Source of the DNA: Micrococcus luteus NCTC 2665
GTDB taxonomy: Bacteria; Actinomycetota; Actinomycetes; Actinomycetales; Micrococcaceae
Reading direction: 5' to 3'
DNA: 32,000 bases
Assembly: GCF_000023205.1 (NCBI RefSeq)
Contig: NC_012803.1
Coordinates: forward strand, 1,110,001 to 1,142,000
Positions 12,492-23,656 of the stretch are shown in pieces. Below the pieces are notes generated by a model. The model searched no databases. It saw only the letters and a list, made by a program, of their open reading frames with translations, and was not told where the DNA came from. Numbering within the stretch: the stretch's first letter is position 1; every line of letters begins with the position of its first letter. The position numbers and the translations under genes are program-made.

Positions 12492-12614
12492 GCCGGGGCA
12501 ACCCCCGGTGGTGGCGGGGTATTCCGACGCCGGCCGACTGCCGTGGCTTAACCCGTCCGGCCTCTCCCGTTGACTTTGCGGCATCACAGGTGGCAAGTGA
12601 GTGGGAGGGATTCA

Positions 12615-13859
12615 ATGCACGACGCCATGATGTTTTCCAGTGTGTCCCTATTGTGGGCAGGTCTATTCACACTGTCACGACGAGTGGAGCTTGCCGGGCT
12701 CCGGGATGGGCAGGGTGAAAGGGTTTGGTCCGGGCGGGGTGGCATGGTCCTCGCGATCGGTCTGGTCGTGGGGATGACCGGACTTCTCGTGGGCTCCGAG
12801 AACGTTGTTGCAATGGTGTTCTGCGGTCTTGGTCTCCTTCTGCTCGGGTGCTCGTTCCTCCTGATTCTCGTCATGCCCAAGGCCTCACAGCTGAGCGGTG
12901 AGGTGCAATGGCGACGAATCGTCAAGCACCGCCTACAGCATCGACTTTCCGCATTCCGACACGCGGGGCGTGAGTGGTGGCAGGCGATGTCGCGCCCGGC
13001 CATAGCGGGTGGAACGGCAGTAGCCCGTGGGCGCGTGAAGCGGCACGGGCCATCTCTGGAACCGCTGCTGTTCTTGGCCATCGTGTTGCTGGCGGGGGTT
13101 GTGGCACTTAGCGGCATGCTGTCGACATTGGTCCGCCTCTTCGATCCGCGGAATGGGGTAAACACCGCCATCGCTGGGACCGCGTTGGCGACCGCTTGGA
13201 TGGTGCTCCTGGGGCTTACCTTGTGGGCCCTCACCGTCACCTTGATCTTGGCGGTGATCGTGGGGCAGTGGCGGCCCGCGTACCGGGCCCATGTGCTTTC
13301 CGCCGTACAGGCGACAGTCGCCGGCACGGGTGCCGGTGCCGCCGTCGGGATATGTGCTGCTGTCATGGCGCCGGTCGGGTGCTACGCGGTCCAGGCGGCA
13401 GGAGTGGCGCGGATTTGGGACTGCCAGACTGCTTCGGTGGACCTCGGGGTGAGCCACATCCTGATGGTCAGCAGTTTCTTCAGTCTCTTCGGATTCATGG
13501 CCGGAAGTGTGCTCGGGACGACAAGCCTCATGGCCTGGCGAGGACGGCCCGCGTGGACGCGGATCGTCTACCCGTCGGTCTACCTCACGGTGTGGGGGCT
13601 GGTCCTGGCCACGGCCTCGCCTCGATCGATCCTGGAAGCGATTTCACAGGAGTCTGTGTCCACTGGGGTACCGGACATGTCACTGACGCGGGACCAACGC
13701 TTTGGTCAGGCTGGCGGTGACGCATGGCGGGTCGCCGTCGTCGAGATGAAAGAGGCAGGCGCGTGGCCGGTGGCGCCCGAGGCGGGGGCCCTCTGGTGGT
13801 GGAGTGCAGGTGTGGTGGTCCTTGCGCTCGTGTACCAAGTACGGGCGGAAGTTCTCTAG
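12615..13859 (+). CDS. Orphan polytopic membrane protein (about 10 hydrophobic segments), C-terminus truncated by transposon insertion
   Basis: ORF with GGGAGGG 5 nt upstream of ATG 12615. It has many hydrophobic helices and no motif I recognise. G+C and GC3 bias are visibly lower than in the neighbours, with frequent CTA, TTG, TCA, CGA, CTT and GGT codons. The stop codon TAG (13857-13859) is formed by TA of the target plus the first G of the IS end. Confidence 0.6.
   Translation: MHDAMMFSSVSLLWAGLFTLSRRVELAGLRDGQGERVWSGRGGMVLAIGLVVGMTGLLVGSENVVAMVFCGLGLLLLGCSFLLILVMPKASQLSGEVQWRRIVKHRLQHRLSAFRHAGREWWQAMSRPAIAGGTAVARGRVKRHGPSLEPLLFLAIVLLAGVVALSGMLSTLVRLFDPRNGVNTAIAGTALATAWMVLLGLTLWALTVTLILAVIVGQWRPAYRAHVLSAVQATVAGTGAGAAVGICAAVMAPVGCYAVQAAGVARIWDCQTASVDLGVSHILMVSSFFSLFGFMAGSVLGTTSLMAWRGRPAWTRIVYPSVYLTVWGLVLATASPRSILEAISQESVSTGVPDMSLTRDQRFGQAGGDAWRVAVVEMKEAGAWPVAPEAGALWWWSAGVVVLALVYQVRAEVL
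13851..13858. repeat. Left copy of the 8-bp target-site duplication GTTCTCTA flanking the composite transposon
   Basis: GTTCTCTA lies immediately outside the left IS terminus and is identical, in direct orientation, to 18753-18760. Confidence 0.75.
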
Positions 13860-13899
13860 GGTGAGTCCAATAGCGTGGTGTCAATTCCCGCGGGGTTCT

Positions 13900-13907
13900 C
13901 GTCGTCG
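13900..13907. repeat. Left copy of the 8-bp target duplication CGTCGTCG made by ISa
   Basis: CGTCGTCG directly abuts the ISa left end. The same octamer abuts the right end at 15342-15349. The uninterrupted ISb copy 2 has it only once (18704-18711, reverse complement). Confidence 0.8.
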
Positions 13908-15341
13908 GGGCGTGTCAACTTGTCTGTGTAAGCGGGGTGGTCACAGGTAGGGGTTGATCCGGTCGGGGTAGGCCGCGGCGAGCTGGGCGAGGGCCTGCTT
14001 CCAGTTCGTGACGGCCTGGCCTTCGACGAGCCGGCCCTGGGCTTTGCGCTGGCCGGCGGGTTTGCCCCGGTCCCGAGCGCGTTCGGCGGCGCGTTTGTCT
14101 TCGATGTTGCAGATCGCCAGCCAGAGCAGCTTCACCGCCGCCTCGGTCGAGGGGAAGTGGCCGCGGTTCTTGGTCACCTTCCGTAGCTGGAAGTTCAGCG
14201 ACTCGATGCTGTTGGTCGTGTAGATGACCTTGCGGAGCATGGGTGGGAACTGCAGGAACGGGATGAACCGCTCCCAGGAGTTCGCCCAGGTCGCGGCTGC
14301 AGACGGGTACTTCGTGCCGAGCTCGGAGGCCTCGAACTCGGCCAGCGCCTTCCTCGCGGTCTCTTCGTTGGGGGCAGTGTAGATCGGCTTCAGCGCGGCG
14401 GCGACCTTCTTGCGGTCCTGGTAGGCCACGAACCGCATCGCGGCCCGGATCAGGTGAACCACGCAGGTCTGGACCATCGAGTCCGGCCACGTCGCCTCGA
14501 TCGCCTCCGGCAGGCCCTTGAGCCCGTCGCAGCACACGATCAGCACGTCCTGTACGCCCCGGTTGGCGAGATCGGCGCAGACGTGGGCCCAGAACGCCGA
14601 GCCCTCGGTGTCCTGGACCCAGATCCCCAGCACGTGCTTGATGCCCTCGAGGTCCACGCCGACGGCGATGTAGGCGGCACGGTTGAGGACCTGGCTGTTC
14701 TCTCGGATCTTGATCCGGATTGCGTCGAGATAGATCACCGGATAGAACTCCTCCAGCGGCCGCGACTGCCACGCCAGGACCTCTTCGCTCACGGCGTCGG
14801 TGATGTTGGAGATCGTCTCGTGCGACAGGTCCGTGCCGATCGTGGAGGCCAGGTGGTGCTGGATGTCCCGGATCGTCATTCCGCCGGCATAGAGGCTGAT
14901 GATCATGTCATCCAGGCCCCCGAGGCGCCGCTGGCCCTTGGGCACCAGGCGCGGGGTGAACGACCCGCCCCGGTCTCGCGGGACGTCCAGCTCGATCGGC
15001 CCGACCTCGGACTCCACGGTCTTCGGGGTGGTCCCGTTGCGGGAGTTGGCGTGCTTCGGCGCCTCGCTCGAGCCCTTCTCGTAGCCCAGATGGCTGGTCA
15101 GCTCGGCCTGCAGGCCCCGCTCGAGCGCGGCCTTGACCAGCGCGGGCACGAACCCGCCGTCACCGGTGAGCTCGACGCCGCCCGCGTCGATCTGCGCGAA
15201 TAGGGAATCAAGCTGCCCTGAGGCTTTCAGCTGCTCGACCAGGTCCTGGCCCGAGGGCTCGCCTGGGTTCTTCTCGTCGGTCATGGTCATGATTCTTACC
15301 GTTCCTCTCGGTACGGCTTACACAGACCATCTGACACGCCC
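13908..15341 (-). mobile_element. ISa, a 1434-bp IS256-family insertion sequence nested in ISb copy 1
   Basis: Imperfect 26-bp terminal inverted repeats: GGGCGTGTCAACTTGTCTGTGTAAGC (13908-13933) and the reverse complement of 15316-15341, GGGCGTGTCAGATGGTCTGTGTAAGC (3 mismatches). It has a single transposase ORF and an 8-bp TSD. Confidence 0.85.
13941..15290 (-). CDS. IS256-family (Mutator-type) transposase of ISa
   Basis: 449 aa with typical IS256-family blocks: GFVPALVKAALERGLQAELTSHLGY, RNGTTPKTV, VPRDRGGSF.P.LVPK, YPVIYLDAI, CCDGLKGLPEAI, QTCVVHLIR and TTNSIESLN. Confidence 0.9.
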   Translation of the reverse strand: MTMTDEKNPGEPSGQDLVEQLKASGQLDSLFAQIDAGGVELTGDGGFVPALVKAALERGLQAELTSHLGYEKGSSEAPKHANSRNGTTPKTVESEVGPIELDVPRDRGGSFTPRLVPKGQRRLGGLDDMIISLYAGGMTIRDIQHHLASTIGTDLSHETISNITDAVSEEVLAWQSRPLEEFYPVIYLDAIRIKIRENSQVLNRAAYIAVGVDLEGIKHVLGIWVQDTEGSAFWAHVCADLANRGVQDVLIVCCDGLKGLPEAIEATWPDSMVQTCVVHLIRAAMRFVAYQDRKKVAAALKPIYTAPNEETARKALAEFEASELGTKYPSAAATWANSWERFIPFLQFPPMLRKVIYTTNSIESLNFQLRKVTKNRGHFPSTEAAVKLLWLAICNIEDKRAAERARDRGKPAGQRKAQGRLVEGQAVTNWKQALAQLAAAYPDRINPYL

Positions 15342-15349
15342 CGTCGTCG
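15342..15349. repeat. Right copy of the ISa target duplication CGTCGTCG
   Basis: See 13900-13907. Confidence 0.8.
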
Positions 15350-15417
15350 TAGACGGTGAAGGGCCATCGTGGGATGACCAGTTGTTTCCGCCAAGAAGCA
15401 AGAAGAGTGATCCCACG

Positions 15418-16686
15418 ATGACCCACAACCAGTCTGCCCTGACGACCCTGATCGGCGAAGTCCTCGCCGACCCCGACCTGGCCCACTCGGACGTGTTCCG
15501 GCGAATGCTGCAGGCCGGCCTGCAAGACCTGATCAACGCGGAAGCGACCGTGAAGATCGGCGCGGCCCGTTACGAGCGCACCCCGGAGCGGACCACCCGC
15601 CGTAACGGCACCCGGCCGAAGACCCTCGCGACCCCGGCCGGGGAGGTGGACCTTCAGATCCCGAAGCTGCGGGAGGGGTCGTTCTTCCCCTCGCTGCTGA
15701 GCCCGCGCCGCCGGGTCGACAAGGCGCTCTACGCGGTGATCTGTCAGGCCTGGATCGACGGCGTCTCGACCCGCAAGGTCGATCAGCTGGTGCGGGCGCT
15801 CGGCAACGACACCGGCATCAGCCGGTCGACGGTGTCGCGGATCTGCGGTGAGATCGACGAGGCGGTGCAGGAGTTCCTTTCCCGCCGGATCGATCACACT
15901 TGGTTCCCGTACCTGTTCCTCGACGCGACCTACCTCGACGTCCGCCACCGCGGCCGGGTCGCCTCGCAGGCCCTCGTCGTCGCCACCGGCGTGAGCGGCG
16001 AGGGCAGGCGGGAGATCCTCGGGATGGCGCTCGGTGACGCGGAGACCACCGACTTCTGGACCGAGTTCCTCCGCAGCCTCCGCGACCGCGGCCTGAAGGT
16101 CGCCACCGACGCCGACCCGCTCGGGGTTGCCCTGGTCACGTCCGACGCGCACGCCGGCATCAAGGCCGCGGTGAAAGCGATCCTGCCCGGCTCGGGGTGG
16201 CAACGATGCCGAGTGCATTTCGCGCGCAACGTGACCCAGAAGCTCGGCTCAGCACGCTCCAAGCCGGTCAACGCGCTGATCTCCACGATCTTCGCGCAGA
16301 CCACCCCCGAAGCGGTGATCGCGCAGTATCACCAGGTCACCGACAGTCTGCGCGGCTCGTTCCCCGAGATCACCGCCATGCTCGAGGCCGCCGAGCCGGA
16401 CCTCACCGGGTTCGCCCCGCTGCCCCGGGAGCACTGGCAGAAGGTCTGGTCCAACAACCCCATCGAGCGCCTCAACCGCGAGATCAAACGCCGCGCCGAC
16501 GTCGTCCAGATCTTCCCCGACCGCGACTCCGTGACCCGCCTGATCGGCGCGGTCCTCCAGGAACAACACGAGGAATGGCAATACGGCGAACGCCGCTACT
16601 TCTCCGACATCTCGATGCGCAAACTCGTCCACACCCTGCACGAACACACCGAACCCGCCCGCCCCGAGCTCTACCTCACCGCCTGA
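15418..16686 (+). CDS. IS256-family transposase of ISb, copy 1
   Basis: 422 aa starting MTHNQSALTTLIGEVL. Blocks: RNGTRPKTLATPAGEVDLQIPKLREGSFFPSLL, YLFLDATYLDVR, TSDAHAGIKAAV, WQRCRVHFARN and SNNPIERLNREIKRR. The translation is identical to that of 17367-18635. Confidence 0.9.
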   Translation: MTHNQSALTTLIGEVLADPDLAHSDVFRRMLQAGLQDLINAEATVKIGAARYERTPERTTRRNGTRPKTLATPAGEVDLQIPKLREGSFFPSLLSPRRRVDKALYAVICQAWIDGVSTRKVDQLVRALGNDTGISRSTVSRICGEIDEAVQEFLSRRIDHTWFPYLFLDATYLDVRHRGRVASQALVVATGVSGEGRREILGMALGDAETTDFWTEFLRSLRDRGLKVATDADPLGVALVTSDAHAGIKAAVKAILPGSGWQRCRVHFARNVTQKLGSARSKPVNALISTIFAQTTPEAVIAQYHQVTDSLRGSFPEITAMLEAAEPDLTGFAPLPREHWQKVWSNNPIERLNREIKRRADVVQIFPDRDSVTRLIGAVLQEQHEEWQYGERRYFSDISMRKLVHTLHEHTEPARPELYLTA

Positions 16687-16800
16687 CCACCACCCACCCA
16701 CAGGGAACAACGGAATGACACCACGCCACGGGACTTGACCCCCGCTGACGCAGTGCTGGACCTGCCACGCGCAACCCGAATCGAGGTCTTGTCCGGCACG

Positions 16801-17253
16801 CTAAAAGAGCAGGTCAAAGATAGCCATGGCCCGCTCCCAGTGCACGCTCTGCGGGTTTTTGACCTTAGGATCGAGGATTTTGAAGGCACGTGCCAGCGCC
16901 ACCGTCAGCCCGCCGACCAGGCGCGGCGACTCCGCTTCCATCTCATAGCTGTAGGCCAGGTCGAGCGGGGGCAGGGCTACCAGCTGATCCAGGATAGGCT
17001 GAAGCTCCAGTGCGGTGTCCAGCCCGTCGAAGGCCCGCATGCTCTCCTTGAAGCCGAGCGTCAGCGGCAGGTCGTGCAGCTGGATGACGTCTCGCTGGTT
17101 GTCCTTGGCCGTGGCCTGCGCCGCCAGCAACAGATCGTAGACCTTCTGCCGCACGAAATCGTTCAGCCGCGCCAGGTCGTTCTTGTCCACGTCCAGGCCG
17201 GCTGCCTCCCGAAAGAGCCGTTCAAACTTCGATACGCCGATGATTTTCGCCAT
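16801..17253 (-). CDS. DUF1931-family protein (predicted pseudodimeric histone-fold protein), cargo of the composite transposon
   Basis: 150 aa, MAKIIGVSKFERLFREAAGLDVDKNDLARLNDFVRQKVYDLLLAAQATAKDNQRDVIQLHDLPLT...LDPKVKNPQSVHWERAMAIFDLLF. The pattern FERxFRxAAGLDVDKND...YDLL...A..N.RD.I...DLP...LPPLDL...LDP..KNPQ..HWERA..IFDLL matches DUF1931 proteins as I remember them. A strong SD (AGGAGGAGA) lies 7-10 nt upstream of the ATG. Codon usage is less GC3-biased than in host genes. Confidence 0.7.
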   Translation of the reverse strand: MAKIIGVSKFERLFREAAGLDVDKNDLARLNDFVRQKVYDLLLAAQATAKDNQRDVIQLHDLPLTLGFKESMRAFDGLDTALELQPILDQLVALPPLDLAYSYEMEAESPRLVGGLTVALARAFKILDPKVKNPQSVHWERAMAIFDLLF

Positions 17254-17312
17254 AGTTCTATCTCCTCCTGTCAGACTTACAGTGACACTAATAGCACGGA
17301 CACCGGGGGCCG

Positions 17313-18752
17313 GGTCAAGTCCCGTGGCGTGGTGTCATTCCGTTGTTCCCTGTGGGTGGGTGGTGGTCAGGCGGTGAGGTAGAGCTCGGGGCGGGCGGGT
17401 TCGGTGTGTTCGTGCAGGGTGTGGACGAGTTTGCGCATCGAGATGTCGGAGAAGTAGCGGCGTTCGCCGTATTGCCATTCCTCGTGTTGTTCCTGGAGGA
17501 CCGCGCCGATCAGGCGGGTCACGGAGTCGCGGTCGGGGAAGATCTGGACGACGTCGGCGCGGCGTTTGATCTCGCGGTTGAGGCGCTCGATGGGGTTGTT
17601 GGACCAGACCTTCTGCCAGTGCTCCCGGGGCAGCGGGGCGAACCCGGTGAGGTCCGGCTCGGCGGCCTCGAGCATGGCGGTGATCTCGGGGAACGAGCCG
17701 CGCAGACTGTCGGTGACCTGGTGATACTGCGCGATCACCGCTTCGGGGGTGGTCTGCGCGAAGATCGTGGAGATCAGCGCGTTGACCGGCTTGGAGCGTG
17801 CTGAGCCGAGCTTCTGGGTCACGTTGCGCGCGAAATGCACTCGGCATCGTTGCCACCCCGAGCCGGGCAGGATCGCTTTCACCGCGGCCTTGATGCCGGC
17901 GTGCGCGTCGGACGTGACCAGGGCAACCCCGAGCGGGTCGGCGTCGGTGGCGACCTTCAGGCCGCGGTCGCGGAGGCTGCGGAGGAACTCGGTCCAGAAG
18001 TCGGTGGTCTCCGCGTCACCGAGCGCCATCCCGAGGATCTCCCGCCTGCCCTCGCCGCTCACGCCGGTGGCGACGACGAGGGCCTGCGAGGCGACCCGGC
18101 CGCGGTGGCGGACGTCGAGGTAGGTCGCGTCGAGGAACAGGTACGGGAACCAAGTGTGATCGATCCGGCGGGAAAGGAACTCCTGCACCGCCTCGTCGAT
18201 CTCACCGCAGATCCGCGACACCGTCGACCGGCTGATGCCGGTGTCGTTGCCGAGCGCCCGCACCAGCTGATCGACCTTGCGGGTCGAGACGCCGTCGATC
18301 CAGGCCTGACAGATCACCGCGTAGAGCGCCTTGTCGACCCGGCGGCGCGGGCTCAGCAGCGAGGGGAAGAACGACCCCTCCCGCAGCTTCGGGATCTGAA
18401 GGTCCACCTCCCCGGCCGGGGTCGCGAGGGTCTTCGGCCGGGTGCCGTTACGGCGGGTGGTCCGCTCCGGGGTGCGCTCGTAACGGGCCGCGCCGATCTT
18501 CACGGTCGCTTCCGCGTTGATCAGGTCTTGCAGGCCGGCCTGCAGCATTCGCCGGAACACGTCCGAGTGGGCCAGGTCGGGGTCGGCGAGGACTTCGCCG
18601 ATCAGGGTCGTCAGGGCAGACTGGTTGTGGGTCATCGTGGGATCACTCTTCTTGCTTCTTGGCGGAAACAACTGGTCATCCCACGATGGCCCTTCACCGT
18701 CTACGACGACGAGAACCCCGCGGGAATTGACACCACGCCACGGGACTTGACC
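17313..18752 (-). mobile_element. ISb copy 2 (IS256 family), intact, 1440 bp
   Basis: Perfect 25-nt terminal inverted repeat GGTCAAGTCCCGTGGCGTGGTGTCA at 17313-17337 and, as reverse complement, at 18728-18752. It carries a single transposase ORF. Confidence 0.88.
17367..18635 (-). CDS. IS256-family transposase of ISb, copy 2
   Basis: Start at the same MTHNQSALTT methionine as copy 1 (mirror of 15418). The longer track ORF (to 18941) runs through the IS end into flanking DNA and is not credible upstream of this Met. Confidence 0.9.
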   Translation of the reverse strand: MTHNQSALTTLIGEVLADPDLAHSDVFRRMLQAGLQDLINAEATVKIGAARYERTPERTTRRNGTRPKTLATPAGEVDLQIPKLREGSFFPSLLSPRRRVDKALYAVICQAWIDGVSTRKVDQLVRALGNDTGISRSTVSRICGEIDEAVQEFLSRRIDHTWFPYLFLDATYLDVRHRGRVASQALVVATGVSGEGRREILGMALGDAETTDFWTEFLRSLRDRGLKVATDADPLGVALVTSDAHAGIKAAVKAILPGSGWQRCRVHFARNVTQKLGSARSKPVNALISTIFAQTTPEAVIAQYHQVTDSLRGSFPEITAMLEAAEPDLTGFAPLPREHWQKVWSNNPIERLNREIKRRADVVQIFPDRDSVTRLIGAVLQEQHEEWQYGERRYFSDISMRKLVHTLHEHTEPARPELYLTA

Positions 18753-18760
18753 GTTCTCTA
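18753..18760. repeat. Right copy of the 8-bp target-site duplication GTTCTCTA
   Basis: It lies directly outside the right IS terminus (…GGGACTTGACC|GTTCTCTA). Confidence 0.75.
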
Positions 18761-18997
18761 TAGACGAGTCCCGCCCTCTACGCCCCACATGTAGTGGTCC
18801 GCGGGGGCCGGACACGCCGCTCGCAGACGTGGCGAACTCGACTTTCCGGCTGTGGGAACCCGGCCCCGAGATCTCCACCGGCTGTGGACAGTCGACCTCG
18901 GCCCTGGCGTGTCCCGCATGTCCGCGCGGATCGTCTCGCACAGCAGGGTGTGGACAGGATGGGCAGAGGATGGGGATACGTAACTACAGTGGTGTGA

Positions 18998-19013
18998 CTA
19001 CTACATGTAGGGA
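18998..19013. promoter_or_regulatory. NrdR box 1 upstream of nrdH
   Basis: CTACTACATGTAGGGA. The core aCtAcATgTaG fits the 16-bp palindromic NrdR-box consensus (acaCwAtATaTwGtgt). Confidence 0.6.
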
Positions 19014-19029
19014 TGGTTCCTGGCGGAGA

Positions 19030-19045
19030 TCACTAGATGTAGTAT
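19030..19045. promoter_or_regulatory. NrdR box 2 upstream of nrdH
   Basis: TCACTAGATGTAGTAT, with the same core aCtAgATgTaG. Its centre is 32 bp from the centre of box 1, the usual tandem spacing. It overlaps a possible -10 hexamer TAGTAT (19040-19045). Confidence 0.6.
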
Positions 19046-19139
19046 CGACGCAGATGTTCGGCACGCTCCGTGATTCACCTCGCGGACGCCGCGCCGACAC
19101 CCGCAGACCACCAGAGACCACGAAGGAACAGGGATCGCC

Positions 19140-19385
19140 ATGACCGTCACCGTGTACACCAAGCCGGCCTGCGTGCAGTGCAACGCCACCTACCGTGCAC
19201 TGGACAAGAAGGGCATCGCCTACGAGGTCGTGGACATGTCCCAGGACCCCGCCGCCCTCGAGCGCGTCCGTGCCCTCGGCTTCATGCAGGCCCCCGTCGT
19301 CATCACCGAGACCGACTCCTGGTCCGGCTTCCGCCCGGACAAGATCGCCGAGCTCGCCGAGTCCGCCGCGGCATCGGTGGCCTGA
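19140..19385 (+). CDS. nrdH: NrdH-redoxin (glutaredoxin-like electron donor of class Ib RNR)
   Basis: 81 aa, [22 protein letters not shown]...WSGFRPDKI. The CVQC active site and the WSGFRP motif are NrdH hallmarks. It is the first gene of the nrdHIEF arrangement. Confidence 0.92.
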
Positions 19386-23367: not shown

Positions 23368-23552
23368 GGAGGGGTGCCGCCGGCCACTGGATGGCAGGGG
23401 TTTGTCATATAACGACACATGACGCGGGCGGAAGGCGGGGTCCAGCCCTCCGAGAGGTCGGGAAATGAGACCTGTGTCACGTCGTTCCTTCCACGGCGCC
23501 CCGGTGTGGTTGACTTTTTCCCTGCACCGGTGACGACGCCGGGGCACCCCTC

Positions 23553-23645
23553 ACCATCTTGAGCGGCCGAGAGATCTGGGTCGACGACGCCGCAGCAACC
23601 ACACCCCCACCGACCGGGCGCAGGTGCTAACGCCAGGACCGATGG
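23553..23645 (+). promoter_or_regulatory. SAM-I-clan (S-box / SAM-IV-like) riboswitch-like leader of metNIQ
   Basis: CCATC TTGAG CGGCCGAGAGATCTGGGTCGACGACGCCGC A GCAACC ... GGTGCTAACGCCAGG ... GATGG. There is P1 pairing CCATC/GATGG, and GAGAGAtCTGGgtCGAcGAcgCC resembles the P2 kink-turn block GAGGGAcUGGCCCgAUGAagCC. The conserved GCAACC and GGUGCUAA..CC elements are present. The SD GGAAAGGA and ATG 23657 follow directly. Confidence 0.6.
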
Positions 23646-23656
23646 AAAGGACGGGA

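What the first reader, a model, noticed from the sequence alone, without database searches (positions are those of the whole stretch)
13851..18760. Tn5/Tn10-style composite transposon made of two identical inverted IS256-family copies, flanked as a unit by one 8-bp duplication
Seen in sequence:
- 15342-16740 is the reverse complement of 17313-18711 (mirror rule x+y=34053). All six-frame ORFs in the two segments translate identically, and my nucleotide spot checks agree.
- Each copy encodes a 422-aa IS256/Mutator-type transposase.
- Three of the four ends carry the same 25-nt terminus GGTCAAGTCCCGTGGCGTGGTGTCA.
- Directly outside the two outer ends, the octamer GTTCTCTA occurs in direct orientation (13851-13858 and 18753-18760).

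Established: IS256-family elements create 8-9 bp target duplications.

Inference:
- A single duplication around the whole 4.9-kb structure means the two copies plus the 572-bp middle inserted as one unit, not as two independent IS hits.
- Deleting 13859-18760 in silico restores one continuous reading frame (...AEVLYRRVPPSTPHM*, stop at 18792-18794), which supports a clean single insertion event.
- Both inner ends are the same IS end, so recombination between the 1.4-kb inverted repeats would flip the cargo without changing its context.
Basis: partly seen in the sequence, partly recalled or inferred. Interest (0 to 1): 0.7.

Follow-up and report, generated by a model that had tools for sequence, protein, structure and literature searches.

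The report
IS256 composite transposon with histone-fold cargo
Two inverted copies of an IS256-family insertion sequence, one split by a third insertion sequence, enclose a foreign histone-fold (DUF1931) gene and share one 8-bp target duplication, making an ordinary kind of composite transposon with two unusual details: one terminus is a hybrid of the two end types, and the same cargo gene travels with other insertion sequences in unrelated bacteria.

Summary
ISb (17313-18752) and ISa (13859-13907 + 15350-16740) are 1440-bp IS256-family copies in inverted orientation around a 572-bp DUF1931 gene. GTTCTCTA directly flanks the whole 4,894 bp, and neither copy has a duplication of its own.

- ISa is split by a third, different IS256-family element, ISc (13908-15341), which has its own duplication CGTCGTCG.
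- The odd terminus is ISb's, not ISa's. About 25 other copies show that ISa's outer end is the normal left end. ISb's outer end has the right-end 14-nt tip grafted onto left-end interior. This hybrid was seen nowhere else.
- The "target gene" is strain-specific DNA. Other Micrococcus luteus strains have 12 bp where this genome has 12538-18786.

No empty site was found, and cargo flipping is untested.

The cargo is 99.3-99.8% identical in DNA to modules in Deinococcus, Microbacterium and Actinomyces, beside IS5/IS1182-like, ISL3-like and IS91-like elements or other IS256-family copies. It traces to a Rhodothermales-like chromosome.

Verdict: a new member of a known kind (Tn4001-like composite). 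Unit insertion is well supported but not proven.

The parts
12538..13858 (+). Left part of a strain-specific ~1.35-kb low-G+C segment that is the composite's target DNA. It holds an orphan ORF (12615-13859, 414 aa as called in LS483396.1).
   Evidence: Seven other M. luteus-type contigs lose homology at 12536/7 and regain it at 18784-7, with 12 bp (CGGCGGGCTCCT) in between. The ORF belongs to a single protein cluster in the 5.8-billion-protein database and has no Pfam, NCBIfam, PADLOC or PHROGs hit. G+C is 0.62-0.66 and GC3 is 0.74.
13851..13858 (+). Left copy of the 8-bp target-site duplication GTTCTCTA
   Evidence: only two occurrences in the window, each directly abutting an outer terminus
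13859..13907 (+). Outer 49 bp of ISa. The normal left inverted repeat (IRL) GGGTGAGTCCAATAGCGTGGTGTCA is at 13859-13883.
   Evidence: Identical to the transposase-upstream end of about 25 other copies in different contexts. Matches the reverse complement of ISb 18704-18752 except for 6 nt in the tip.
13900..13907 (+). Left copy of ISc's 8-bp target duplication CGTCGTCG. The right copy is at 15342-15349.
   Evidence: ISb carries this octamer only once at the equivalent place (18704-18711)
13908..15341 (-). ISc, a different IS256-family element nested in ISa. It is 1434 bp with a 449-aa transposase (13941-15290, minus strand). Its inverted repeats are GGGCGTGTCAACTTGTCTGTGTAAGC and GGGCGTGTCAGATGGTCTGTGTAAGC.
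   Evidence: Pfam Transposase_mut E 1.5e-116 and NCBIfam IS256 2.9e-123. The exact transposase occurs in many unrelated contexts.
15350..16740 (+). Remainder of ISa, with an intact 422-aa transposase gene (15418-16686) and the right inverted repeat (IRR) at 16716-16740
   Evidence: 100% identical to the reverse complement of ISb 17313-18703. The DDE triad and CxxH motif align to ISCth4 TnpA, PDB 6XG8.
16741..17312 (-). Cargo: a 572-bp foreign module (G+C 0.62) with a DUF1931 pseudodimeric histone-fold gene at 16801-17253 (minus strand, 150 aa)
   Evidence: Pfam DUF1931 E 3.7e-57. PDB 1WWI (TTHA1479) E 1.5e-45. 99.3-99.8% DNA identity to modules in Deinococcus, Microbacterium and Actinomyces. 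91-92% identity to the Rhodocaloribacter litoris chromosome.
17313..18752 (-). ISb, a complete 1440-bp copy with a 422-aa transposase gene (17367-18635, minus strand) and IRR at 17313-17337
18728..18752 (-). IRL*, the hybrid outer terminus of ISb. It joins the IRR-type 14-nt tip and the shared 11-nt core to IRL interior (ATTCCCGCGG...).
   Evidence: It is absent from the IRL ends in 20 genome loci and from JGI metagenome contigs. It is present in PacBio, other complete and k141 metagenome assemblies of this site.
18753..18760 (+). Right copy of the 8-bp target-site duplication GTTCTCTA
18753..18786 (+). Right remnant of the strain-specific 1.35-kb segment. Homology to other M. luteus strains resumes at about 18787 (ACATGTAGTGG...).

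Best explanation
13859-18752 is a 4,894-bp nested composite transposon in Micrococcus luteus NCTC 2665. Two inverted copies of one IS256-family insertion sequence enclose a 572-bp passenger that carries a DUF1931 histone-fold gene. Both transposase genes point inward, so both inner ends are right ends (IRR).

Inferred history:
1. The IS landed on both sides of a DUF1931 module that was already travelling between bacteria. One copy landed 59 bp downstream of the stop codon. The other landed in the loop of a hairpin 59 bp upstream of the start codon.
2. The IS256-family DDE transposase then used the two outer termini to copy the whole unit out as a circle and paste it into the target GTTCTCTA, creating the single 8-bp duplication.
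3. The target lies in a 1.35-kb low-G+C segment that other M. luteus strains lack. The transposition may therefore have happened in another host, with the whole 6.25-kb block imported afterwards.
4. A different IS256-family element, ISc, later inserted 49 bp inside ISa. It made its own 8-bp duplication and cut the ISa transposase gene off from its terminal promoter region. ISb remains intact and can supply transposase.

ISb's outer terminus carries the right-end tip. The outermost 14 nt of the unit are therefore a left-tip/right-tip pair, as in one normal IS. I infer that circularising the unit would rebuild the family's junction promoter (TTGACC, 17-19 nt, TAGCGT) reading into ISa. A circle of ISb alone would not rebuild it.

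Shown: the anatomy, the duplications, family membership, the foreign and recurrently mobilised cargo, and the uniqueness of the hybrid end among the copies seen.
Inferred: the order of events, transposition as a unit, the junction-promoter role, and any present-day mobility.
For: - Anatomy and identity of the copies.
- One 8-bp direct repeat around the whole element, and none around either IS alone.
- The same IS makes 8-bp duplications as single copies (L041/L043, L044).
- IS256-family membership with intact DDE and CxxH.
- The family's copy-out/paste-in mechanism, 8-bp duplications, end variation concentrated in the first 14 bp and the junction promoter are documented in PMC7780238. Tn4001 is the precedent for an IS256 composite (PMC6496109).
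- The cargo is foreign. Its closest non-mobile relatives are Rhodothermus and Rhodocaloribacter.
- Native module sequence continues beyond both cargo boundaries in other genomes.
- The junction IRR|cargo(+512) also occurs in contig L015, where the other side of the cargo continues into native module DNA. This fits stepwise assembly elsewhere.
- ISc carries its own duplication, which ISb has only once.
- The same structure appears in LS483396.1 (PacBio), CP035298.1, CABC01000026.1 and QVMY01000006.1.
- Junction-promoter arithmetic.
- The left/right differences at positions 3-5 and 14 are conserved in relatives 85-88% identical.
Against: - No empty site was found. The 21-mer across the restored target has 0 hits in 185,579 species-representative genomes and 0 in JGI metagenomes. 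No intact form of the orphan ORF exists in the protein database.
- The composite was not seen at any second site with a different duplication.
- A plain composite of two normal copies should have two IRL-type outer tips. The observed L/R tip pair is what a single IS insertion would leave, so an extra event has to be assumed.
- The junction-promoter argument rests only on consensus hexamers. The generic sigma-70 scan of the region found nothing.
- With ISc in place, a transcript from a rebuilt junction promoter would run into ISc before reaching the ISa transposase gene.
Confidence: 0.75

Rival explanations
1. A single normal IS copy inserted at GTTCTCTA and made the duplication. Its left tip and right tip are what now sit at 13859 and 18752. 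The interior was rebuilt later by recombination with an incoming IS-cargo-IS segment, with one crossover inside the 11-nt core shared by both ends. On this reading the two copies and the cargo did not insert as a unit.
For: The outermost 14-nt tips are exactly an IRL-tip/IRR-tip pair, as in every single copy examined. The switch from IRR-type tip to IRL-type interior falls in the 11-nt core GCGTGGTGTCA that both ends share.
Against: I could not find a simple route. The path needs a crossover in 11 bp of homology on one side. Integration of an IS-cargo circle through that core predicts an IRL tip at ISa's inner end, which is not observed (my reasoning). No contig shows a single copy at this site. 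All right-flank junctions seen carry IRL*.
Confidence: 0.1
2. This rival concerns where the event happened and is compatible with a composite transposon. The transposition took place in another host, and M. luteus NCTC 2665 acquired the whole 6.25-kb block (12538-18786) as one piece of foreign DNA by illegitimate recombination. The composite has therefore never moved in this genome.
For: Other M. luteus strains have 12 bp in place of the whole block. The 1.35-kb target DNA has low G+C and an orphan ORF with atypical GC3. No repeats or duplication were seen at the block ends. The IRL-interior scan of species-representative genomes returned this IS from Microbacterium, Actinomyces and MAG records and from no Micrococcus record.
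Against: The 1.35-kb segment was found in no other organism, so there is no donor candidate. Sequential arrival, with the segment first and the transposon later, is equally compatible with the data.
Confidence: 0.4
3. Two independent insertions of the IS happened on either side of a gene native to this locus, and the matching octamers are coincidence.
For: None beyond the bare possibility. This IS does hit the DUF1931 module repeatedly: IRR at +512, IRL at +524, and IRR at -49 and -59 relative to the start codon.
Against: Neither IS has its own duplication. An 8/8 match at fixed positions has a chance of about 5e-5. The cargo is not native: related strains lack it, and it is more than 99% identical to DNA in Deinococcus and other genera.
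Confidence: 0.03
4. The inverted duplication is an assembly artefact.
For: Exact 1.4-kb inverted repeats are a known assembly hazard.
Against: The same structure appears in independent assemblies: LS483396.1 (PacBio), CP035298.1 and a 454-era WGS record. All four IS/flank and IS/cargo junctions, including IRL*, are each covered within single k-mers of metagenome contigs.
Confidence: 0.01

Closest known systems
Tn4001 (Staphylococcus aureus; IS256 - aacA-aphD - IS256)
   Same: A composite transposon built from two inverted IS256-family copies around a short passenger. It is flanked as a unit by the family's 8-bp duplication and is about the same size (about 4.7 kb). The presumed mechanism is copy-out/paste-in through a circle (PMC6496109, PMC7780238).
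   Different: The IS is a different, actinobacterial family member. The cargo is a DUF1931 histone-fold gene, not a resistance gene. One flanking copy is split by a third IS. One outer terminus is a left/right hybrid. No transposition has been demonstrated.
   Same: Inverted IS copies flank the cargo, there is one duplication around the unit, and one of the two copies is functionally impaired.
   Different: Tn5 and Tn10 use IS4-family cut-and-paste transposases and make 9-bp duplications (my own knowledge). This element belongs to the IS256/Mutator family, which uses copy-out/paste-in and makes 8-bp duplications. The impairment here comes from a nested IS and an altered terminus, not from point mutations in the transposase.
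IS256 / ISCth4 single elements
   Same: A 1.3-1.5 kb element with one DDE/CxxH transposase. The terminal repeats differ mainly in the first 14 bp, and the R-end -35 plus the L-end -10 form a promoter in the circle junction (PMC7780238). The 1440-bp IS here shows the same layout.
   Different: ISb has R-type tips at both ends, a configuration not seen in any other copy retrieved.
Other IS-DUF1931 structures found here
   Same: The same DUF1931 module (more than 99% DNA identity) lies between two inverted 1631-bp IS5/IS1182-like copies in Microbacterium lacticum (L019). It also lies in direct arrays with IS256-family copies in Actinomyces provencensis (L026, L039).
   Different: The IS families or orientations differ, the cargo boundaries differ, and no flanking duplication was evident around the L019 structure. 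These are independent captures, not copies of the M. luteus transposon.

Membership tests
IS256 family insertion sequence (ISa/ISb and ISc) | Single transposase of the Mutator/IS256 type with a DDE triad and a C/DxxH motif | tested here: met
   Pfam PF00872 at E 1e-119 and 1.5e-116. NCBIfam NF033543 above its cutoff for both proteins. D, D, E and CxxH of the 422-aa protein align to the catalytic residues of ISCth4 TnpA, PDB 6XG8 (residues as named in PMC7780238). The ISc residues were not individually checked.
IS256 family insertion sequence (ISa/ISb and ISc) | Length about 1.3-1.5 kb, with terminal inverted repeats of about 25-30 bp that differ mainly in the first 14 bp | tested here: met
   ISa and ISb are 1440 bp, and the normal IRL and IRR match at 19/25 with all differences in positions 3-14. 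ISc is 1434 bp with 23/26 matching repeats and the subterminal TGTAAG motif (PMC7780238).
IS256 family insertion sequence (ISa/ISb and ISc) | 8-bp (sometimes 9-bp) target-site duplication | tested here: met
   ISc: CGTCGTCG. Single copies of the ISa/ISb type: CAATGCCC (L044) and TACGCCCG (L041/L043). Whole composite: GTTCTCTA.
IS256 family insertion sequence (ISa/ISb and ISc) | Transposition through a double-stranded circle with abutted ends (copy-out/paste-in) | not testable with these tools
   Needs PCR or sequencing of circle junctions. No IRR-spacer-IRL junction was seen in the retrieved contigs.
Composite (compound) transposon | Two copies of the same IS flank a passenger segment | tested here: met
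   identical over 1426 of 1440 nt, in inverted orientation, with a 572-bp passenger between them
Composite (compound) transposon | One target duplication flanks the whole unit, and the individual IS copies lack their own | tested here: met
   GTTCTCTA lies at both outer ends. The inner flanks are CCCGCTGA and GGGGGCCG.
Composite (compound) transposon | An uninterrupted (empty) target site exists in relatives | tested here: inconclusive
   The restored-site 21-mer has 0 hits. Related strains lack the whole surrounding 6.25-kb block. No intact orphan ORF was found.
Composite (compound) transposon | The same unit is found at another site with a different duplication, or is shown to move | tested here: not met
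   All long contexts of the exact cargo protein are this same site. The IRL* signature was found nowhere else. Other IS-cargo structures are independent captures. This lowers the claim of present mobility, not the structural classification.
DUF1931 pseudodimeric histone-fold proteins (cargo) | Full-length match to PF09123 and homology to the solved members TTHA1479 and Aq_328 | tested here: met
   PF09123 at E 3.7e-57, covering profile positions 1-138 of 138. PDB 1WWI at E 1.5e-45 and 1R4V at 1.6e-8. The family is described as lacking the DNA-binding residues and has no known function (bioRxiv 10.1101/2025.05.08.652872; PMC11390915).

The most novel reading that the evidence does not exclude
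The hybrid terminus IRL* is an adaptive change, not an accident. Giving the two-IS unit a left-tip/right-tip pair lets the circularised 4.9-kb composite rebuild the IS256-type junction promoter, while ISb alone loses it. This turns a loose IS pair into a single self-activating transposon. Its cargo, a DUF1931 histone-fold gene of Rhodothermales origin, is under positive selection and is spreading across phyla on at least four kinds of insertion sequence.
Probability: 0.2. Interest if true: 0.65.

Novelty: new member of a known kind. Interest (0 to 1): 0.42.

Why it matters
As a composite transposon this is textbook biology in a long-sequenced type strain. Two aspects reach further.

First, the hybrid terminus offers a simple experimental test of how copy-out/paste-in composites cope with needing a left/right end pair for their junction promoter. 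This point is not addressed for Tn4001-like elements in the papers I could read.

Second, DUF1931 proteins are a major bacterial histone-fold family with no known function. One allele sits at more than 99% nucleotide identity in Deinococcus, Micrococcus, Microbacterium and Actinomyces. It is trimmed to the gene by many independent IS junctions, and in one genome it is arrayed in tandem. That is the signature usually left by a strongly selected gene such as a resistance determinant. It gives a handle for finding the phenotype of this protein family.

Tried and rejected
- Empty-site search. The 21-mer GGAAGTTCTCTATAGACGAGT gave 0 hits in genome contigs and 0 in metagenome contigs. The reason emerged later: relatives lack the whole block.
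- Homologues of the target ORF. Only its own truncated cluster was found. The 'Xanthomonas citri' members are short fragments identical to M. luteus sequence, most likely contamination.
- IRL* signature 29-mer in JGI metagenomes: 0 hits.
- Plasmid collection. The cargo has no match, and the IS matches only an 83%-identical relative on an Arthrobacter plasmid.
- Cargo flipping. Metagenome contigs L002 and L016 show the cargo inverted relative to nrdH, and L014 shows the window orientation. I rejected this as evidence. A k=141 assembly cannot phase a 572-bp segment between exact 1.4-kb inverted repeats, because both paths form an equal-length bubble that the assembler collapses arbitrarily. The two complete assemblies agree with the window.
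- Contigs that cross a whole IS copy (for example the outer flank of L015) were not used to link flanks, for the same reason.
- The M. luteus genome paper and Prudhomme et al. 2002 are not held, so ISfinder names and any earlier description of this structure could not be checked.
- PADLOC and PHROGs gave nothing for the cargo or the orphan ORF.
- The generic promoter/terminator scan of 13700-19200 found nothing.
- I looked for a route from a single IS insertion to the present structure (circle integration through the 11-nt core, nested insertion plus deletion). None reproduces the observed inner ends.
- No flanking duplication was evident around the Microbacterium lacticum composite.


Full report
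**Source.** The window is 100% identical to Micrococcus luteus NCTC 2665, record LS483396.1. The source names attached to the proteins agree.

**Checking the observation.**
- The arms 15342-16741 and 17312-18711 are 100% complementary.
- Each arm encodes an identical 422-aa protein. It is an IS256/Mutator-family transposase: PF00872 at E 1e-119 and NF033543 at 6e-96.
- The DDE triad and CxxH motif align to the catalytic residues of the solved family member ISCth4 TnpA (residues named in PMC7780238).
- The 25-nt terminus GGTCAAGTCCCGTGGCGTGGTGTCA occurs exactly three times, with none expected by chance.
- GTTCTCTA occurs only twice in the 32 kb, at 13851-13858 and 18753-18760.

**What was missed: a third IS.**
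- The left copy is not contiguous. An inverted-repeat pair (13900-13933 and 15316-15349) and a 449-aa IS256-family transposase on the minus strand define ISc at 13908-15341, 1434 bp long.
- ISc is flanked by its own 8-bp duplication CGTCGTCG.
- Removing ISc and one copy of that octamer joins 13859-13907 to 15350-16740. This gives a 1440-bp ISa that equals the reverse complement of ISb (17313-18752) except at six positions, all in the first 14 nt of the outer terminus.
- ISc is a common element. Its exact transposase occurs in many unrelated contexts.
- ISc lies 76 bp upstream of the ISa start codon, so it separates that gene from its terminal region.

**Which terminus is the odd one.**
- I retrieved other copies through exact-protein look-ups and through a scan of species-representative genomes with an IRL-interior pattern. 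The scan gave 20 loci in Microbacterium, Actinomyces provencensis and MAGs.
- Every transposase-upstream end carries GGGTGAGTCCAATAG, or the variants GGGTGAGTCCCATAG and GGGTGCGTCCCGTAG. Every downstream end carries GGTCAAGTCCCGTGG.
- ISa's outer end is therefore the normal left end (IRL).
- ISb's outer end is a hybrid, which I call IRL*. It has the right-end 14-nt tip, then the 11-nt core GCGTGGTGTCA shared by both ends, then left-end interior.
- IRL* is real. It is present in the PacBio record, in CP035298.1 and within single k-mers of metagenome contigs.
- IRL* was found nowhere else, either among the retrieved copies or in JGI metagenomes.

**Is it a composite that inserted as a unit?**

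Evidence for:
- One 8-bp direct repeat lies around the whole 4,894 bp. My estimate of the chance of this match is about 5e-5.
- Neither IS has a duplication of its own. ISa has GTTCTCTA and CCCGCTGA. ISb has GGGGGCCG and GTTCTCTA.
- Single copies of this IS elsewhere make clean 8-bp duplications (L044, L041/L043).
- The family makes 8-bp duplications and moves by copy-out/paste-in through a circle (PMC7780238).
- Tn4001 is an established IS256 composite flanked by such duplications (PMC6496109).

Evidence missing:
- No empty site was found, and no second insertion site was found.
- The restored-site 21-mer has no hit in 185,579 genomes or in JGI metagenomes.
- The reason became clear from contexts of the exact NrdH protein. 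In seven other M. luteus-type contigs the GNAT gene is followed after about 410 bp by nrdH.
- In those contigs, homology to the window stops at 12536/7 and resumes at 18784-7. They have 12 bp (CGGCGGGCTCCT) in place of 12538-18786.
- The target is thus a strain-specific 1.35-kb segment with low G+C (0.62-0.66). Its ORF is an orphan, forming one cluster in 5.8 billion proteins, always truncated at the IS. Its GC3 is 0.74, against more than 0.9 for neighbouring genes.
- The data do not show whether the transposon entered this segment in M. luteus or whether the whole 6.25-kb block arrived together.

**The cargo.**
- The 150-aa ORF is a full-length DUF1931 protein. It is homologous to Thermus TTHA1479 and Aquifex Aq_328.
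- This is the pseudodimeric histone-fold family. It lacks the usual DNA-binding residues and has no known function (bioRxiv 10.1101/2025.05.08.652872; PMC11390915).
- Its 90%-identity cluster includes proteins named from Deinococcus, Microbacterium lacticum and Rhodocaloribacter litoris. The next relatives are Rhodothermus and Rhodocaloribacter at 69-75%.
- At the DNA level all 572 bp are 99.3-99.8% identical to loci in Deinococcus assemblies, M. lacticum and A. provencensis.
- The region shared between contexts is only about -124 to +640 relative to the start codon (up to +744 in one pair). It is cut at many different points: -35, -42, -49, -59, -67, -72 and -124 upstream, and +512, +524, +640 and +744 downstream.
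- The neighbouring elements differ from context to context. In M. lacticum they are two inverted IS5/IS1182-like copies. In A. provencensis, IS256-family copies form direct arrays with a 2005-bp period. One contig has an ISL3-like end. In Deinococcus there are IS91-like termini.
- In R. litoris the gene lies in an ordinary chromosomal context, with 91-92% nucleotide identity over -196 to +468, including the upstream hairpin. The mobile module therefore derives from a Rhodothermales-like chromosome.
- In the M. luteus composite, ISb's right end sits in the loop of that hairpin and ISa's right end sits 59 bp past the stop codon.
- Contig L015 has the same IRR|+512 junction, but native module DNA on the other side of the cargo. 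This fits stepwise assembly of the composite before it reached the present site.

**The hybrid end: a proposed function.**
- In IS256-family elements the two ends differ mainly in the first 14 bp. A -35 in the right end and a -10 in the left end form a promoter when the ends are abutted in the circle (PMC7780238).
- Here the right tip, read outward, ends in TTGACC. The left end has TAGCGT at positions 13-18. With a 5-7 bp spacer the two hexamers are 17-19 nt apart.
- The right-type tip has TGGCGT in place of the -10. The left tip read outward is TCACCC.
- In relatives only 85-88% identical, the left/right differences persist at exactly positions 3-5(6) and 14, while positions 11-12 drift. This suggests the asymmetry is maintained by selection.
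- A composite with two normal left ends outside would not rebuild this promoter on circularisation. The observed IRL*/IRL pair would rebuild it, reading into ISa. ISb alone (IRR/IRL*) would not.
- This explains why the unit has a left/right tip pair, but it rests on consensus matching only.
- The origin of IRL* is unexplained. Three possibilities, none tested:
  - Correction within the near-palindromic circle junction or within a single-strand panhandle.
  - A deletion between the shared cores of ISb's left end and the right end of a lost third copy.
  - The rival reading, in which a single IS made the duplication and the interior was rebuilt later. I could not find a simple route for this one.

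**Flipping.** Contigs L002 and L016 show the inverted state and L014 shows the window state. A k=141 assembly cannot phase this structure, so I do not count these contigs as evidence. The two complete assemblies share the window orientation.

**Verdict.**
- This is a Tn4001-like composite transposon of the IS256 family, nested with a third IS. It lies in strain-specific DNA of the M. luteus type strain.
- The kind is known and this member is unremarkable as a transposon.
- Unit insertion is well supported by the duplication pattern but lacks an empty site.
- The hybrid terminus and the cross-phylum, multi-IS mobility of a DUF1931 histone-fold gene are the parts worth following up.
- I found no paper linking DUF1931 to mobile elements. 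I could not consult ISfinder or the original genome paper.

Noticed in passing
L026 3130-8000 and L039 (Actinomyces provencensis SN12, NZ_LT700212.1): Direct arrays IS256-like | DUF1931 | IS256-like | DUF1931 | IS256-like with a 2005-bp period. The IS copies are only 88-96% identical to ISb, while the cargo copies are 99.6% identical to the M. luteus cargo. A 2005-bp metagenome contig carrying a 212-aa DUF1931 call (P0023) may be the same unit collapsed by the assembler. This looks like tandem amplification of the gene.
   Followed up: partly
L019 4162-8625 (Microbacterium lacticum, CBDBTT010000001.1): The same DUF1931 module (99.3% DNA identity) lies in a 1203-bp segment between two inverted 1631-bp IS5/IS1182-like copies. 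This is an independent composite-like capture by another IS family. No flanking duplication was evident, and a 113-bp direct repeat lies downstream of the gene.
   Followed up: partly
L022, L024, L025 (Deinococcus-type contigs), +640 to +944 after the DUF1931 start: The DNA that follows the module is 95-98% identical to the region just past an IS91-family (Y2 transposase) gene in L024 and L019. This suggests that rolling-circle IS91/ISCR-like elements also mobilise this gene.
   Followed up: no
window 12538-13858 and 18753-18786: A strain-specific 1.35-kb low-G+C segment with an orphan 414-aa ORF that looks like a multi-pass membrane protein (judged by eye from the translation). Other M. luteus strains lack it, it has no homologue outside its own cluster, and no repeats were noticed at its ends.
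   Followed up: partly
window 23551-23648 (+): A SAM riboswitch (RF00162, 46.5 bits, above the gathering threshold), about 280 bp downstream of nrdF and overlapping the start of the ORF at 23624.
   Followed up: no
window about 18997-19012 and 19029-19045: Two similar palindromic boxes (ACTACTACATGTAGGG and ATCACTAGATGTAGTAT) about 32 bp apart upstream of nrdH. From memory they resemble NrdR boxes. The composite lies about 240 bp upstream of them.
   Followed up: no
L057 7912-8934 and L064 4643-5626 (other M. luteus-type contigs): Some strains carry a gene for a TIR-domain protein of about 330-340 aa between nrdE and nrdF. The window lacks it.
   Followed up: no
proteins P0003-P0005: Three partial proteins deposited as Xanthomonas citri pv. 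citri fall in the 90%-identity cluster of the M. luteus NCTC 2665 orphan ORF. P0003, the one retrieved, matches it residue for residue. They sit on contigs of 260-276 bp, which most likely reflects Micrococcus contamination of those assemblies.
   Followed up: no
window 17313-17318 with cargo 17274-17279: ISb's right-end tip, read toward the cargo, gives TTGACC 19 nt upstream of the native TATTAG that lies 35-40 nt before the DUF1931 start codon. Several other IS junctions cluster at -35 to -72. IS-borne -35 elements may drive the gene. In L013 the ISL3-side junction changes TATTAG to TATAGT.
   Followed up: no
Genome-contig scan: The IRL-interior 32-mer, which occurs twice in this window, returned no Micrococcus record from the species-representative genome collection. 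The representative M. luteus genome there apparently lacks this IS.
   Followed up: no
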